This document shows positions 19,643 to 33,887 of a stretch of DNA of 64,000 nucleotides, piece by piece. The notes below the pieces were generated by a model, which saw only the letters and a list, made by a program, of their open reading frames with translations, had not been told where the DNA came from and did not search any database. Source of the stretch: an uncultured Bacilli bacterium (lineage in GTDB: Bacteria; Bacillota_I; Bacilli_A; RF39; UBA660); the NCBI GenBank assembly GCA_934183185.1, contig CAKPSO010000001.1, positions 21,846 to 85,845 on the forward strand. The letters are read 5' to 3'. The stretch's first letter is position 1; every line of letters begins with the position of its first letter. The position numbers and the translations under genes are program-made.

Positions 19643-19724
19643 AGTAAAACCTCCAAACATAATTATACCATAAAAAAGTAGTCAACAAGTAACTACTTAA
19701 AACAATAATACTTTAAATCAAATA

Positions 19725-21266
19725 TTATTTTTTACCTAATTCTTCTAGTTTTTTATCTTTATCAATTCTCATAAATAAAGCTTCTGGATTAACAACTTCA
19801 TAAGAATTATCACTTAAGTAAGTTAATTCACTTCTAGAATTATTAATCTGAGTTTTTATCTTTTCACTAGTATCAGGTAAATATGGACTTAGGAAAATAC
19901 CACATACACGAATAGATTCAAGAAGATTATATAAAACTGTTTCCAATCTATCTTTTTTAGTATCATCTTTTGCAAGAGCCCAAGGCATAGTCTCATCAAT
20001 GTATTTATTAGTTCTTCTAAGAACATCAAAAATCTCATCAAGAGCTGCACCTATTTCTAGATTATTCATTTTCTTTTCTACTTTTTCTTCCAAATTATTT
20101 ACCATTAAAATAAGTTCTTTATCAAAATCTTCTGTAACATTTTTATTAGAAACTGTACCATTAAAATATTTATTAGCCATTGAAATAGTACGATTAACTA
20201 AATTTCCTAAAATATTAGCCAAATCACTATTAATTCTCTCAATTAAAAGTTCATAAGTCAAAGTACCATCATTAGCGTATGGTATTTCATGAAGAACATA
20301 ATATCTTATAGCATCTACTCCAAATTCTTTTACTAAATCATCAGCATAGATAACATTGCCTTTAGATTTACTCATTTTTCCTTCACCAACAAGTAACCAA
20401 GGGTGACCAAATACTTGCTTTGGTAGTGGTAAATCAAGGCTCATTAAAAAGCATGGCCAGTAAATAGTATGAAAACGAATAATATCTTTACCTATTAAAT
20501 GCAAATCAGCTGGCCATAATTTATTAAACTCATCACTACTACCATCTGGATCATACCCAATATTAGTAATATAATTAGTTAAGGCATCAAGCCATACATA
20601 AACAACATGTTTAGGATCAAAGTCAACTGGTATGCCCCAATTAAATGAAGTACGAGAAACACACAAATCCTGAAGACCAGGTTTTATAAAATTATTTATC
20701 ATTTCATTTTTCCTAGACTCTGGTTTTATAAAATCTGGATGTGATTCAATATATTCAACCAATTTATCTTGATATTTAGAAAGTTTAAAGAAATAAGCCT
20801 CTTCACTCTTAGGTTGTACCTCACGTCCACAATCAGGACATTTACCATCAACTAATTGACTTTCCGTAAAAAATGATTCACAAGGAGTACAATATAATCC
20901 TTCATATTTGCCTAAATATATATCTCCTTTATCGTACATTTTTTTAAATATTTTTTGAACAATTTTTTCATGATGTTCATCAGTAGTCCTAACAAATCTA
21001 TCATAACTTGTATTCATAATGTCCCAAATATTTTTAATTTCTGAAGCAACACTATCAACAAATTCTTTAGGCGTAACACCTTTTTCTTCTGCCTTTAATT
21101 GAATCTTTTCACCATGTTCATCAGTACCTGTTTGAAAGTAAACATCAAATCCTTTCAATCTTTTATAACGTGCAATACTATCTGCTAAAACAATCTCATA
21201 AGTATTACCAATATGAGGTTTCCCTGATGTATAAGCAATAGCTGTTGAAATATAATATTTTTCCAT
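19725..21266 (-). CDS. metG: Methionine--tRNA ligase (short form without the C-terminal tRNA-binding domain)
   Basis: Class I HIGN motif (GKPHIGNTYE), a zinc knuckle (CTPCESF...CPDCG) and KMSKS (GKMSKSKGN). Start at the MEKYYIST ATG at 21266 with an AGGAGAG RBS. Confidence 0.9.
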   Translation of the reverse strand: MEKYYISTAIAYTSGKPHIGNTYEIVLADSIARYKRLKGFDVYFQTGTDEHGEKIQLKAEEKGVTPKEFVDSVASEIKNIWDIMNTSYDRFVRTTDEHHEKIVQKIFKKMYDKGDIYLGKYEGLYCTPCESFFTESQLVDGKCPDCGREVQPKSEEAYFFKLSKYQDKLVEYIESHPDFIKPESRKNEMINNFIKPGLQDLCVSRTSFNWGIPVDFDPKHVVYVWLDALTNYITNIGYDPDGSSDEFNKLWPADLHLIGKDIIRFHTIYWPCFLMSLDLPLPKQVFGHPWLLVGEGKMSKSKGNVIYADDLVKEFGVDAIRYYVLHEIPYANDGTLTYELLIERINSDLANILGNLVNRTISMANKYFNGTVSNKNVTEDFDKELILMVNNLEEKVEKKMNNLEIGAALDEIFDVLRRTNKYIDETMPWALAKDDTKKDRLETVLYNLLESIRVCGIFLSPYLPDTSEKIKTQINNSRSELTYLSDNSYEVVNPEALFMRIDKDKKLEELGKK

Positions 21267-21276
21267 AATATCTCTC

Positions 21277-21756
21277 CTATCTACCTGTAGAACCAATACC
21301 GCTAGTTCTAACATTATCTATATTTTCTTCATTATCAACCGTTAAGAACTTTGTAAAAACACCCTGACAAATCTTATCTCCCTTTTTTACAACATAATCT
21401 TCAGAACCATGATTTTGTAACTTTAACCATGCATGTCCCTCATTATCTAGATTATTATAATAATCAGATTCAAATACACCAACCTGATTACACATTCGAA
21501 CATTATACTTAAATCCCTGACTACTTCTAACTAAAAGAAACATAACCTCATCAGTATTCATACATATCTTAATACCAGTTGGAATTTTCTTTATTTCACC
21601 AGGTTTCAAAGTAAAATCAAATAAAGATTCAAAGTCATAACCTGCACTATGTTTAGTATTTCTCTTAGGGATATTATATGATTCATATAACTCTTTATCA
21701 TCACCTATATCCTTTTTAAATTGTTCAAAACTAATTTTCTCAAAATATCTTGCCAT
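21277..21756 (-). CDS. dut: dUTP diphosphatase-like protein (dUTPase/dCTP deaminase superfamily, YncF-like)
   Basis: LLVRSSQGFKYNVRMCNQVGVFESDYY...KKGDKICQGVF...RTSGIGSTG aligns with the YncF/phage-type dUTPase motifs (PRSS..., GVID.DY, KGDRICQ, RG.GGFGSTG). ATG at 21756 directly after a GGAGG RBS and the T-box U-run. Confidence 0.6.
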   Translation of the reverse strand: MARYFEKISFEQFKKDIGDDKELYESYNIPKRNTKHSAGYDFESLFDFTLKPGEIKKIPTGIKICMNTDEVMFLLVRSSQGFKYNVRMCNQVGVFESDYYNNLDNEGHAWLKLQNHGSEDYVVKKGDKICQGVFTKFLTVDNEENIDNVRTSGIGSTGR

Positions 21757-21765
21757 ATTACCTCC

Positions 21766-21990
21766 AAAAAAAAGCAACTATTCTAACCACATAAGGACGA
21801 ATAATCGCGGTACCACCTTAATTTATAGTATAACACTATACACTCAATCTCTTAACGCGAGTAACGAATAAATTATAAACAAATTTATTAGCTCCAGAAC
21901 CATTTATTATTGTTTCTCTATATCTACTTTCACCTAATTAGACTCTCTTAAATAGATTCCCAATAACTCTTTCCTTCAGCGCATTTATGC
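21766..21990 (-). ncRNA. T-box riboswitch leader (tRNA-sensing antitermination element) preceding dut-metG. Probable Met (AUG) specifier
   Basis: The minus-strand transcript contains AAUUAAGGUGGUACCGCG at 21807-21824, a 17/18 match to the T-box consensus AAUUAGGGUGGUACCGCG. This is followed by the terminator helix GCGAUUAUUC/GAAUAGUUGC plus U8 at 21766-21773, and then a GGAGG RBS. Upstream stem-I-like region with AGAGA motifs and an AAAUGG candidate specifier. The promoter TTGAAG-17-TATAAT lies at 22018-21995 on the minus strand. Confidence 0.75.
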
Positions 21991-21994
21991 CTGA

Positions 21995-22023
21995 ATTATA
22001 ACATGAATAATTCTATTCTTCAA
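21995..22023 (-). promoter_or_regulatory. Sigma-A-type promoter for the T-box leader (-35 TTGAAG, 17-bp spacer, TG-extended -10 TATAAT)
   Basis: Read on the minus strand: TTGAAGAATAGAATTATTCATGTTATAAT, with consensus spacing. Confidence 0.5.
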
Positions 22024-22606: not shown

Positions 22607-23236
22607 TTATTTTTCTTCAGTCTTAGAACAAATTTCCTGATATCTTAAATATCCTTCTTTAGCCTTATTAATTAAGTTATTATCTCTAAGTATTAGTTCC
22701 ATATGAATCTTATTTTCTAACTTGCCATACAAACGATTAAACAAATAATCTTGAATTCTTGAAAGCAAAATATCATGTTTATCAAAGTTTTCAAGAGAAT
22801 CTATCTGCTTCATAAAAACATCATAAGCTTTCTTTTGTACATCAGAAATAGAATATTTTTTTAGATCACTTTCTAATACTGTAGTTGTTTTCAAAACAGT
22901 ATCATAATAATTATTTATGTGAGTTTGATCAAACTCCAGTTCTTCTATAACTTTTTCTAATTTAACTTTTTTATTATCCAATAATCGTTCAAACTCACAA
23001 TAACTATCCATTTTTATTTGATTAATAGTATCAGTAATGAATTTTTTACTATCAAATAAATTAGCATCTTCATATATAGATATAATATTTTTTATAGCAT
23101 TATCAAATTCTAAATTAAAAATATTAGTAATGGTTTCTAGCAATGATGTCATGTTTTTTTCTATATCATAACCAAGTGTAGTAATCAAAATTTGTTTATT
23201 TTTTTGTCGAAACATCTCAATGATATCACTATTCAT
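22607..23236 (-). CDS. Hypothetical cytoplasmic alpha-helical protein (209 aa)
   Basis: ORF between mfd and spoVT. No TM helices. No recognisable motifs. Confidence 0.45.
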   Translation of the reverse strand: MNSDIIEMFRQKNKQILITTLGYDIEKNMTSLLETITNIFNLEFDNAIKNIISIYEDANLFDSKKFITDTINQIKMDSYCEFERLLDNKKVKLEKVIEELEFDQTHINNYYDTVLKTTTVLESDLKKYSISDVQKKAYDVFMKQIDSLENFDKHDILLSRIQDYLFNRLYGKLENKIHMELILRDNNLINKAKEGYLRYQEICSKTEEK

Positions 23237-33737: not shown

Positions 33738-33744
33738 ATAATCA

Positions 33745-33835
33745 CCTATAAAAAAAGTGCACATAAATATTAAATGTTAAGGCTGCTACCTTCCAGTCCT
33801 GACCTAGTTCCATCAATATTTATTGCACAACATTA
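33745..33835 (-). ncRNA. ffs: Signal recognition particle RNA (small 4.5S type)
   Basis: The minus-strand transcript contains AGGUCAGGACUGGAAGGUAGCAGCC (orig 33781-33810). This matches the universally conserved SRP RNA domain IV (AGGUCAGGUCCGGAAGGAAGCAGCC). The flanking 5' UGUGCAAUAAAUAUU and 3' AAUAUUUAUGUGCAC arms pair into the long hairpin and are followed by a U8 run. A TTGATT/TATAAT promoter lies just upstream (33834-33868). Confidence 0.7.
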
Positions 33836-33887
33836 TAATAATATATTTTTCCAATATAATCAACTCTTTTTGTGTATAAAAATATAT

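What the first reader, a model, noticed from the sequence alone, without database searches (positions are those of the whole stretch)
21277..22023. T-box riboswitch controlling an unusual dut-metG bicistron
A textbook T-box sequence (AAUUAAGGUGGUACCGCG) with a downstream terminator helix and a U8 run lies on the minus strand. It ends 10 nt before the RBS of a 159-aa dUTPase-family ORF, whose stop is 10 bp before metG. Methionyl-tRNA synthetase under T-box control is common. A nucleotide-metabolism gene (or phage-type dUTPase) inserted between the leader and metG is not. This would place dUTPase expression under control of uncharged tRNA-Met. A candidate AUG specifier (AAAUGG) is visible but not proven.
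Basis: partly seen in the sequence, partly recalled or inferred. Interest (0 to 1): 0.5.

Follow-up and report, generated by a model that had tools for sequence, protein, structure and literature searches.

The report
Met T-box leader of dut–metG operon
An ordinary tRNA-sensing T-box RNA switch of the methionine type sits in front of a two-gene operon in which a dUTPase-family gene precedes the methionyl-tRNA synthetase gene; this odd pairing is conserved across a large group of uncultured gut Bacilli, is fused into one protein in three of them, and recurs in front of the threonyl-tRNA synthetase gene in others.

Summary
Rfam places a complete T-box leader at 21988..21790 (-) (100.3 bits; gathering score 93). 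It has an AUG specifier, an antiterminator, a competing 10-bp terminator and a U8 run. The U8 run abuts the RBS of a 159-aa dUTPase-family ORF, whose stop codon lies 10 nt before metG.

This is not a one-off insertion. In 80 species-level genomes of uncultured gut Bacilli, 75 have a T-box in front of this dut gene. All 71 metG-linked leaders read AUG. Four leaders read ACU, and there dut is followed by thrS (three loci; the fourth contig ends just after dut). Three diverged species encode an in-frame Dut::MetRS fusion behind the same Met T-box.

The dut gene is under strong purifying selection (dN/dS 0.06-0.17) and keeps all nucleotide-binding motifs. Its catalytic motif III Asp is Glu in the window and in 28 of 80 relatives.

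Other passenger genes (RNase R, HAD hydrolase, SDR, small unknown ORFs) also sit inside these T-box operons. The most economical reading is therefore regulatory hitch-hiking in reduced genomes. A real Dut–aaRS partnership is not excluded. The riboswitch itself is standard; the cargo, the fusion and the relocation are new.

The parts
21995..22023 (-). Promoter-like site TTGAAG-17 nt-TATAAT with TG extension, 7 nt upstream of the T-box leader
   Evidence: 10 of 12 matches. It is a weak line of evidence on its own: 16 sites were found against 18 expected in shuffles. Similar extended -10 boxes precede the leaders of relatives.
21790..21988 (-). T-box leader (Rfam RF00230), full length
   Evidence: 100.3 bits, gathering score 93, E = 6.4e-21, model positions 1-219.
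21891..21982 (-). Stem I. It contains the GA/K-turn motif (UGA 21978-21976 with GA 21894-21893), the specifier loop, the AGAGA bulge (21948-21944) and the distal loop GGUGAAA (21934-21928).
   Evidence: cmscan alignment. On 53 homologous leaders, 85.6% of cells are paired, 20 of 21 pairs show compensatory changes, 0 of 500 shuffles reach this, and slid controls give 35-46%.
21901..21903 (-). Specifier codon AUG (Met), followed by the conserved purine G at 21900
   Evidence: alignment columns 94-96 are ATG in all 50 metG-linked leaders of A2 and ACT in the thrS-type leaders.
21806..21823 (-). Conserved T-box sequence AAUUAAGGUGGUACCGCG. The UGGU bulge would pair with the tRNA 3' ACCA end.
   Evidence: The core TGGNAYCNCG lies 50-72 nt upstream of dut in 60 of the 80 loci and 215 nt upstream in one more, L023.
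21793..21819 (-). Antiterminator helix: AAGG, 7-nt bulge UGGUACC, GCGA-UUAU-UCGU, CCUU
   Evidence: Structure line of the cmscan alignment.
21766..21808 (-). Intrinsic terminator: a 10-bp stem (21808-21799 with 21783-21774) and U8 (21773-21766). Its 5' arm overlaps the 3' half of the antiterminator, so the two structures exclude each other.
   Evidence: -17.2 kcal/mol, z = -2.75. T-runs occupy the same position in relatives.
21277..21756 (-). dUTPase-family gene (159 aa), RBS GGAGG at 21765-21761. Motifs I (AGYD), II (RSS), IV (CQG) and V (RTSGIGSTG) are kept. Motif III reads GVFESDYY, with Glu96 (codon 21471-21469) where canonical enzymes have the catalytic Asp.
19725..21266 (-). metG (methionine--tRNA ligase, 513 aa). 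Its RBS AGGAGA (21278-21273) overlaps the dut stop codon. It lacks the C-terminal tRNA-binding domain of the 648-residue model.
   Evidence: NCBIfam PRK12267 scores 760 bits against a cut-off of 598 and matches model positions 4-519 of 648.
19671..19698 (-). Terminator-like hairpin (9-bp A/U-rich stem) plus a U-run after metG. It is followed by an extended -10-like TGGTATAAT before tatD.
   Evidence: This is inference only: it was not flagged by the G+C-requiring scan.

Best explanation
This is a canonical transcription-attenuation T-box riboswitch specific for tRNA-Met. Transcription starts at a sigma-70-type promoter around 22000.

The proposed mechanism is as follows. Stem I reads the anticodon of tRNA-Met through the AUG specifier. 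If the tRNA is uncharged, its free 3' ACCA end pairs with the UGGU bulge and stabilises the antiterminator. RNA polymerase then runs through into a bicistronic dut-metG message. If the tRNA is charged, the 10-bp terminator with its U8 run forms and the transcript ends 10 nt before the dut start codon.

The aminoacyl-tRNA synthetase is the physiologically relevant target. The dUTPase-family gene is a conserved, selected, promoter-less passenger that became embedded between the leader and metG in an ancestor of this group of small-genome gut Bacilli. It is therefore expressed in proportion to demand for tRNA-Met charging.

Shown here: the RNA element, its covariation, the match between specifier and synthetase, the operon anatomy, its conservation, and purifying selection on dut. 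Inferred: antitermination by tRNA-Met, co-transcription, dUTPase activity of the Glu variant, and hitch-hiking as the reason for the linkage.
For: **The RNA element**
- Rfam T-box above the gathering score, full length.
- Mutually exclusive antiterminator and terminator, with U8.
- Stem I covaries across 53 homologous leaders: 20 of 21 pairs are compensatory, and 0 of 500 shuffles reach the observed values.

**Specifier and gene content**
- Of 80 species-level loci, 75 have a T-box in front of dut.
- The specifier is AUG in all 71 metG-linked leaders. It is ACU in L017, L020 and L062, where dut is followed by thrS, and in L023, whose contig ends just after dut.
- The specifier thus follows the synthetase that lies beyond dut. 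This is what one expects if read-through across dut into the synthetase is what selection maintains.

**Operon anatomy**
- dut and the synthetase gene are separated by 10 nt in the window. In the roughly 60 relatives without an inserted gene, tblastn-based estimates run from a 4-nt overlap to 40 nt.
- Three species carry an in-frame Dut::MetRS fusion behind a Met T-box of 107-120 bits, which proves co-expression there.

**dut is a selected gene**
- dN/dS is 0.06-0.17, comparable with 0.09-0.10 for metG.

**Evidence for the hitch-hiking part**
- Other unrelated genes occupy the same slot in relatives. These are RNase R between the Thr T-box and thrS (L090), a HAD hydrolase (L094), an SDR (L079), Bro-N and RhuM genes (L080, L056), and unknown ORFs of 54-196 aa.
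Against: - There are no expression data, and the organisms are uncultured.
- The promoter match is no better than chance.
- An internal promoter inside dut cannot be excluded by sequence. One 10-of-12 match lies at 21701..21673, but it is not above background.
- Two species (L054, L057) keep dut-metG but have lost the T-box, so the leader is dispensable for the pair.
- Pure hitch-hiking does not easily explain three things: dut landed in the same slot of a second T-box operon (thrS), it has stayed glued to metG down to 53% Dut identity, and it became fused to MetRS.
Confidence: 0.85

Rival explanations
1. The linkage is functional rather than accidental. On this reading the dUTPase-family protein is a partner of the T-box-controlled synthetases. 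It could be a trimerising N-terminal module that replaces the missing oligomerisation or tRNA-binding domains of these truncated MetRS and ThrRS enzymes. Alternatively, dUTP sanitation or dUMP supply may need to be tied to tRNA charging status.
For: - The dut-metG pair is conserved from 96% down to 53% Dut identity.
- Three diverged in-frame Dut::MetRS fusions exist, 76-78% identical to each other and with different linkers, one of them seen in two independent assemblies. This is a Rosetta-stone signal.
- dut relocated into the equivalent slot of the thrS operon. The thrS-linked Duts nest inside a metG-linked clade at 80-82% identity to L006 and L022.
- Start and stop codons overlap, suggesting translational coupling.
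- The MetRS lacks its C-terminal domain and the ThrRS lacks its N-terminal TGS domain.
Against: - Unrelated passenger genes occupy the same slot in relatives.
- No Dut::ThrRS fusion appeared among the best 120 hits.
- dut stands alone without a synthetase or T-box in L039 and L078.
- The 48 of 49 wider-family representatives that keep Asp look like ordinary dUTPases; their genomic context was not examined.
- No biochemical link between dUTP hydrolysis and aminoacylation is known to me.
Confidence: 0.2
2. The Dut-like protein in this window is no longer a dUTPase. The catalytic Asp of motif III has been replaced by Glu, and the neighbouring Ile by Phe. On this reading it survives for a non-catalytic or altered function, such as nucleotide sensing or signalling as proposed for phage Duts, or a different substrate.
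For: - Motif III reads GVFESDYY where the closest solved enzyme has GVIDGDYY.
- Glu occurs in the window and in 28 of 80 relatives, in about six separate blocks of a neighbour-joining tree.
- Glu occurs in only 1 of 49 representatives of the wider family.
- Scores fall below the NCBIfam equivalog cut-offs: 132.6 against 223 for PRK13956, and 87.5 against 102.55 for TIGR00576.
Against: - Glu keeps the carboxylate needed to activate the water molecule.
- All residues that bind uracil, deoxyribose, phosphate and the metal are kept, as is motif V.
- Asp and Glu forms alternate between close relatives in the same genomic slot. The window and L001 have Glu, whereas L002-L004 have Asp at 80-84% amino-acid identity. 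This suggests the two forms are interchangeable.
- No second dut is present in the 64-kb window, although whole genomes could not be checked.
Confidence: 0.15
3. The T-box controls only dut, or nothing downstream, and metG is expressed mainly from its own promoter inside or after dut. On this reading the bicistron is apparent, not real.
For: - A 10-of-12 sigma-70-like match lies inside dut at 21701..21673.
- AT-rich genomes offer many cryptic promoters.
- Two relatives (L054, L057) express dut-metG without any T-box.
Against: - The specifier codon matches the synthetase lying beyond dut in 74 of 74 readable cases: AUG with metG, ACU with thrS. Only L023, whose downstream gene is cut off, could not be scored. 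This would not be maintained if the leader did not govern the synthetase.
- Only 10 nt separate the two genes, and the metG RBS overlaps the dut stop codon.
- Fusion proteins exist.
- Promoter-like matches are not enriched over shuffles.
Confidence: 0.05
4. The ORF is a recent phage-derived insertion or a decaying remnant.
For: dUTPases are common phage cargo, and 668 phage records give a match.
Against: - The best phage identity is 41-44%.
- The gene sits in the conserved backbone pth-mfd-spoVT-[T-box]-dut-metG-tatD-ksgA-yabG-veg-spoVG in many species.
- dN/dS is 0.06-0.17.
- 64 columns are invariant across 22 homologues.
Confidence: 0.02

Closest known systems
T-box leaders of Firmicute aminoacyl-tRNA synthetase genes (Rfam RF00230; B. 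subtilis tyrS and glyQS as paradigms)
   Same: It shares all the structural hallmarks and the terminator/antiterminator logic. The synthetase cognate to the specifier is the regulated gene.
   Different: A nucleotide-metabolism gene lies between the leader and the synthetase. The T-box regulon surveys I could read list synthetases, amino-acid biosynthesis genes and transporters. Neither 'dut' nor 'dUTP' occurs in the main text of PMC2494555 in the gene sense (the one word-start match is 'Dutch'), and 'dut' does not occur in PMC3766115. Vitreschak et al. 2008 is not held in the library and could not be read.
Staphylococcus aureus met-leader T-box of metICFE-mdh (PMC3771891)
   Same: It is a Met-specific T-box acting by transcription attenuation.
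   Different: It controls methionine biosynthesis genes rather than metG plus a dUTPase. By its title, that T-box is specific for initiator tRNA. Whether the leader here prefers initiator or elongator tRNA-Met cannot be read from the sequence.
Mycoplasma penetrans MetRS with an appended N-terminal aminotransferase domain (PMC7694997)
   Same: It is a small-genome, Mollicutes-type bacterium in which an unrelated enzyme is joined to the N-terminus of MetRS. This is the nearest precedent for the Dut::MetRS fusions P0129, P0271 and P0272.
   Different: According to that paper's abstract, the appended domain supplies the amino-acid substrate, which is an obvious functional link. A dUTPase has no known link to methionylation. 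In the window itself the two proteins are separate.
Streptococcus mutans dUTPase (PDB 3H6X; NCBIfam PRK13956-type trimeric dUTPases)
   Same: It is the best sequence match (E = 9.5e-29) and the best fold match. The same five motifs occur in the same order, and the unusual YYNNxxNEGH extension of motif III is shared.
   Different: The window protein has Phe-Glu where 3H6X has Ile-Asp at the catalytic position. It has an insertion of about 10 residues near the N-terminus (FEQFKKD...). It scores below the PRK13956 cut-off.

Membership tests
T-box leader (RF00230) | Covariance-model score at or above the curated gathering score | tested here: met
   100.3 bits against 93, full-length match.
T-box leader (RF00230) | Stem I with GA/K-turn base, AG bulge (AGAGA) and distal loop (GGUGNRA), supported by covariation | tested here: met
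   All motifs are present. The helices hold in 85.6% of cells, and 20 of 21 pairs show compensatory change across 53 leaders.
T-box leader (RF00230) | Specifier loop presenting a codon followed by a purine, matching the regulated gene | tested here: met
   AUG followed by G at 21903-21900. AUG occurs in all 71 metG-linked leaders. ACU occurs in the three thrS-linked leaders and in L023, whose downstream gene is cut off.
T-box leader (RF00230) | Conserved T-box sequence forming an antiterminator with a UGGN bulge, competing with an intrinsic terminator | tested here: met
   AAUUAAGGUGGUACCGCG, a 7-nt bulge UGGUACC, and an overlapping 10-bp terminator with U8.
T-box leader (RF00230) | Read-through induced by uncharged cognate tRNA | not testable with these tools
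   This needs in vitro transcription or in vivo starvation experiments.
Homotrimeric dUTPase (Pfam PF00692) | Family profile score above the curated cut-off, and the jelly-roll fold | tested here: met
   Pfam gives 54.4 bits against 22. The AlphaFold model (pLDDT 71) has trimeric dUTPases as all 50 listed Foldseek PDB hits.
Homotrimeric dUTPase (Pfam PF00692) | Motifs I, II, IV and V (AGxD, RSS, Q, RxxGxGSTG) | tested here: met
   AGYD, RSS, CQG and RTSGIGSTG align with the corresponding motifs of 3H6X and are invariant in relatives.
Homotrimeric dUTPase (Pfam PF00692) | Motif III G-x-I-D-x-D-Y with the catalytic Asp | tested here: not met
   The window has GVFESDYY, with Glu96 in place of the Asp. 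The role of this Asp rests on my own knowledge of E. coli D90. I therefore call the gene 'dUTPase-family'; its activity is inferred.
Homotrimeric dUTPase (Pfam PF00692) | NCBIfam equivalog cut-off for dUTP diphosphatase | tested here: not met
   PRK13956 scores 132.6 against 223, and TIGR00576 scores 87.5 against 102.55.
Methionine--tRNA ligase (NCBIfam PRK12267 / TIGR00398) | Equivalog score above the cut-off | tested here: met
   760.3 bits against 598, and 578.5 against 336. The C-terminal tRNA-binding domain is absent: the match covers model positions 4-519 of 648.

The most novel reading that the evidence does not exclude
The dUTPase-family protein may be a genuine partner of T-box-controlled aminoacyl-tRNA synthetases in this lineage. 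It is encoded immediately upstream of the synthetase, often with overlapping or near-abutting stop and start codons (10 nt apart in this window), and can be fused to it. It might act as an N-terminal trimerising or accessory module for domain-poor MetRS and ThrRS enzymes, or it might couple dUTP sanitation to tRNA charging. The recurrent Asp-to-Glu change at its catalytic base could mark a shift away from plain dUTP hydrolysis.
Probability: 0.2. Interest if true: 0.7.

Novelty: new variant of a known kind. Interest (0 to 1): 0.5.

Why it matters
T-box regulons are thought of as synthetases, amino-acid biosynthesis genes and transporters. Here a nucleotide-sanitising enzyme is placed under control of uncharged tRNA across a whole clade of abundant but uncultured gut Bacilli.

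The natural switch of specifier (AUG to ACU) with the downstream synthetase is a clean comparative confirmation of how T-box specificity tracks its target across an intervening gene.

The three in-frame Dut::MetRS fusions are, as far as the searchable literature shows, an undescribed appended domain for a synthetase. They make the question of whether Dut and the synthetase interact directly testable.

The repeated Asp/Glu exchange at the catalytic base offers a natural experiment on the dUTPase mechanism.

If the linkage is only hitch-hiking, it still illustrates how reduced genomes stack promoter-less housekeeping genes behind riboswitch leaders.

Tried and rejected
- **First T-box regex.** My first pattern for the T-box core was mis-specified and found almost nothing. 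It was corrected.
- **RNAalifold on the MAFFT Stem I alignment.** It recovered only the distal helix. I therefore supplied the Rfam-derived structure by hand for pair counting (after a length error).
- **Whole-leader fold.** The minimum-free-energy fold is not distinguishable from shuffles (z = -1.12), as expected for a two-state leader. Only the terminator sub-fold is informative.
- **Literature.** Searches for a dUTPase in a T-box regulon or fused to a synthetase found nothing. Vitreschak et al. 2008 is not in the library, so absence from that survey is unverified.
- **Dut::ThrRS fusion.** None was found among the best 120 hits of a concatenated query.
- **Phage origin.** Rejected.
- **Remnant of a Met T-box in L023.** I looked between the Thr T-box and dut for such a remnant as a trace of relocation. 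Only a 54-aa ORF is there.
- **Second dut in the genomes.** None lies in the 64-kb window.
- **tRNA genes.** The window has none, so the discriminator and anticodon of the cognate tRNA-Met could not be checked.
Full report
**1. The observation**

On the minus strand the window reads, in order:
- a promoter-like TTGAAG-17-TGnTATAAT (22023..21995);
- a leader;
- a U8 run;
- GGAGG;
- a 159-aa ORF (21756..21277);
- 10 nt of spacer;
- metG (21266..19725);
- an A/U-rich hairpin with a U-run (19698..19671);
- tatD.

Rfam matches the leader (21988..21790) to the T-box family over the whole model at 100.3 bits (gathering score 93, E = 6.4e-21). It is the only T-box in the 64 kb.

The cmscan alignment shows each expected part:
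- the GA/K-turn motif;
- the AGAGA bulge;
- the GGUGAAA distal loop;
- Stem III;
- the T-box sequence AAUUAAGGUGGUACCGCG with its UGGUACC bulge;
- the antiterminator.

A 10-bp terminator (GCGAUUAUUC / GAAUAGUUGC) shares its 5' arm with the antiterminator and is followed by U8. The only slip is that the U-run abuts the RBS rather than ending 10 nt before it.

**2. The specifier**

In the cmscan alignment the 3' side of the specifier loop reads UAA-AUG-G, that is AUG followed by the conserved purine. To test this independently I fetched relatives.

A scan of one genome per bacterial species with the ORF's protein returned 80 loci. All come from uncultured gut Bacilli, labelled for example Candidatus Scybalousia, Clostridium sp. 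CAG:710, CAG:914 and CAG:1193, and 'Tenericutes' MAGs.

T-box evidence in those 80 loci breaks down as follows.
- 75 have a T-box in front of the ORF.
- 61 carry the T-box core motif, 60 of them 50-72 nt upstream of dut and one (L023) 215 nt upstream.
- Two more, L017 and L020, were found with a relaxed motif.
- 12 more were found by Rfam or by Stem I motifs.
- Four have none: L039, L078, L054 and L057.
- One contig, L052, is cut off just upstream of dut.

On a 53-sequence alignment of Stem I, the Rfam-type structure holds in 85.6% of cells, against 35-46% when the partners are slid. Twenty of 21 pairs show compensatory changes, and no shuffle out of 500 reaches the observed values.

The three columns aligned with the window's AUG are ATG in every metG-linked leader. 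That is 50 in the alignment and all 71 when the remaining sequences are read by eye.

**3. A natural control**

In L017, L020 and L062 the same gene is followed by a threonyl-tRNA synthetase gene instead of metG. Its product has tRNA_SAD, class II core and HGTP_anticodon domains.

The T-box in front of these three reads ACU followed by A at the specifier position. L023 also reads ACU, but its contig ends just after dut, so its downstream gene is unknown.

An abundant organism, whose ThrRS P0456 is seen in 116 blocks of the collection, has the same T-box(ACU)-dut-thrS layout, with dut and thrS overlapping by 14 nt.

The specifier therefore follows the synthetase that lies beyond dut. This is the strongest available evidence that the leader governs transcription through dut into the synthetase gene. 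It argues against an independent metG promoter as the main source of metG mRNA.

**4. The ORF**

Evidence that it belongs to the trimeric dUTPase family:
- It passes the Pfam dUTPase threshold (54 bits against 22).
- Its best solved relative is the Streptococcus mutans dUTPase 3H6X (E = 9.5e-29).
- A modest AlphaFold model (pLDDT 71) finds only trimeric dUTPases among the 50 Foldseek PDB hits listed.
- Motifs I (AGYD), II (RSS), IV (CQG) and V (RTSGIGSTG against RTGGFGSTG) are intact and invariant in relatives.

Motif III is the exception. It reads GVFESDYY where 3H6X has GVIDGDYY. The Asp that activates the attacking water in characterised enzymes (my knowledge: E. coli D90) is Glu here.
- Glu occurs in the window and in 28 of the 80 relatives, in about six separate blocks of a neighbour-joining tree.
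- It alternates with Asp between close relatives. The window and L001 have Glu; L002-L004 have Asp at 80-84% amino-acid identity.
- It is found in only 1 of 49 representatives of the wider family.
- The protein also falls below the NCBIfam dUTPase equivalog cut-offs.

It is nevertheless strongly constrained. dN/dS is 0.06-0.17, like metG at 0.09-0.10. It is not phage-like, with phage proteins at most 44% identical. I call it a dUTPase-family gene and regard dUTPase activity as likely but unproven.

**5. How old and how tight the linkage is**

The neighbourhood is the classical Firmicute backbone: pth-mfd-(unknown)-spoVT-[T-box]-dut-metG-tatD-(3D domain)-ksgA-yabG-veg-spoVG.

The T-box-dut-metG order persists in Dut homologues only 61% and 53% identical to the window's (L094 and L096; T-box scores of 99.8 and 114.4 bits).

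An exhaustive search of cluster representatives turned up P0129, a 684-aa protein with the Dut domain joined in frame to MetRS. A follow-up search found three such fusions:
- P0129, P0271 and P0272 are 76-78% identical to each other.
- Their linkers differ: STDEEEKKPYYIS, STSEKTENKFYIS and SSTDTEKPKYYIS.
- They lie on separate long contigs, and one was also seen in an independent NCBI assembly.
- All sit at the syntenic mfd-...-tatD position.
- All are preceded by a Met T-box of 107-120 bits.

The fusions are therefore real and maintained.

The thrS-linked Duts are 80-82% identical to the metG-linked Duts of L006 and L022. They nest among them in the tree. This indicates relocation of dut from the metG operon into the same slot of the thrS operon.

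**6. Why dut is there**

Two readings remain.

*Hitch-hiking.* The slot between leader and synthetase is permissive in this lineage. It holds other genes in other species:
- RNase R between a Thr T-box and thrS in L090;
- a HAD hydrolase with weak similarity to YjjG-type pyrimidine nucleotidases in L094;
- an unknown family of 154-170 aa in L007, L010 and L014, with a truncated copy in L015;
- a 54-aa ORF in L023;
- between dut and metG, an SDR (L079), Bro-N and RhuM genes (L080, L056) and an unknown 196-aa ORF (L014).

In addition, dut occurs alone in L039 and L078, and dut-metG survives without the T-box in L054 and L057.

*Real partnership.* Four points favour it:
- the depth of conservation;
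- the tight spacing, with stop and start codons overlapping or nearly abutting in many relatives;
- the fusions;
- the second landing in front of another synthetase.

The MetRS lacks its C-terminal tRNA-binding domain and the ThrRS lacks its TGS domain. I give hitch-hiking the larger share and the partnership about 0.2.

**7. Comparison with what is known**

The RNA is an ordinary member of RF00230 and works like the tyrS and glyQS paradigms. The cargo is what is new.

The T-box regulon surveys I could read do not mention a dUTPase. No paper in the library links dUTPase to a T-box or to a synthetase fusion.

The nearest precedent for the fusion is the aminotransferase domain appended to the N-terminus of Mycoplasma penetrans MetRS (PMC7694997). 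The nearest Met T-box that has been studied is the S. aureus metICFE-mdh leader (PMC3771891).

**8. Verdict**

The riboswitch is standard. The operon architecture is a new variant, and it is clade-wide rather than an isolated oddity. I score interest at a moderate 0.5. That score rests mainly on the fusion, the relocation to thrS and the Asp/Glu exchange, none of which is visible from the window alone.

Noticed in passing
window 21469-21471 (Glu96 codon); L001-L080: The catalytic Asp of dUTPase motif III is replaced by Glu, as FE, IE, VE or LE instead of ID. This holds for the window and 28 of 80 relatives, in about six separate blocks of the Dut tree. Only 1 of 49 representatives of the wider family has Glu. 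Asp and Glu forms alternate between close relatives in the same genomic slot.
   Followed up: partly
L086 3001-5055; L087/L088 3001-5058; L089 3001-5064: Three diverged in-frame Dut::MetRS fusion proteins (684-687 aa), each behind a Met T-box. One was seen in two independent assemblies.
   Followed up: yes
L017 3786-6236; L020; L062 3785-6207; L092 1802-4267; L023 3592-4450: In L017, L020, L062 and L092 the same dut gene sits between a Thr-specific T-box (ACU specifier) and thrS. In L062 and L092 the dut stop and the thrS start overlap; in L017 they lie 4 nt apart. L023 has the same ACU T-box and dut, but its contig ends before the next gene.
   Followed up: yes
L090 21-4255: A Thr T-box (79.9 bits) is followed by an RNase R-family gene (753 aa) and then thrS. 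This is another non-amino-acid passenger in a T-box operon.
   Followed up: partly
L007 3462-3974; L010 3472-3978; L014 3510-3974; L015 3700-3975: A conserved ORF family of 154-170 aa (motifs YY(V/L)IP and NRKNF..IQGG.QKV.KR) with no Pfam match lies between the Met T-box and dut in several species. L015 holds a truncated copy.
   Followed up: partly
L094 2369-2992: A HAD-family hydrolase with weak, below-cut-off similarity to YjjG-type pyrimidine nucleotidases lies between the T-box and dut. It may be a second nucleotide house-cleaning enzyme in the operon.
   Followed up: partly
L079 4488-5219; L080 4568-5419; L056 4537-5562; L014 4494-5084; L023 3807-3971: Assorted genes are inserted inside the operon in single species: an SDR, a Bro-N domain gene, a RhuM-family gene, an unknown 196-aa ORF, and a 54-aa ORF that overlaps the dut start (ATGA).
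   Followed up: partly
L054 3823-4001; L057 1505-1669: Two species keep dut-metG but have lost the T-box. The spoVT-dut spacer there is only about 165-180 nt, and Rfam finds no match at E = 0.01 or better.
   Followed up: partly
window 19725-21266; L017 4482-6236: The synthetases are domain-poor. The MetRS (513 aa) lacks the C-terminal tRNA-binding domain, and the ThrRS (584 aa) starts at the editing domain without the N-terminal TGS domain.
   Followed up: no
window 22607-23236 (-): A 209-aa ORF between mfd and the spoVT-like gene has no Pfam match. An ORF of similar size, also without Pfam hits, occupies the same position in relatives (L081 3297-3959, L083 3430-4059); the sequences were not compared.
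   Followed up: no
window 33742-33839 (-): Bacterial small SRP RNA (RF00169, 58.4 bits). No tRNA gene is present anywhere in the 64 kb.
   Followed up: no
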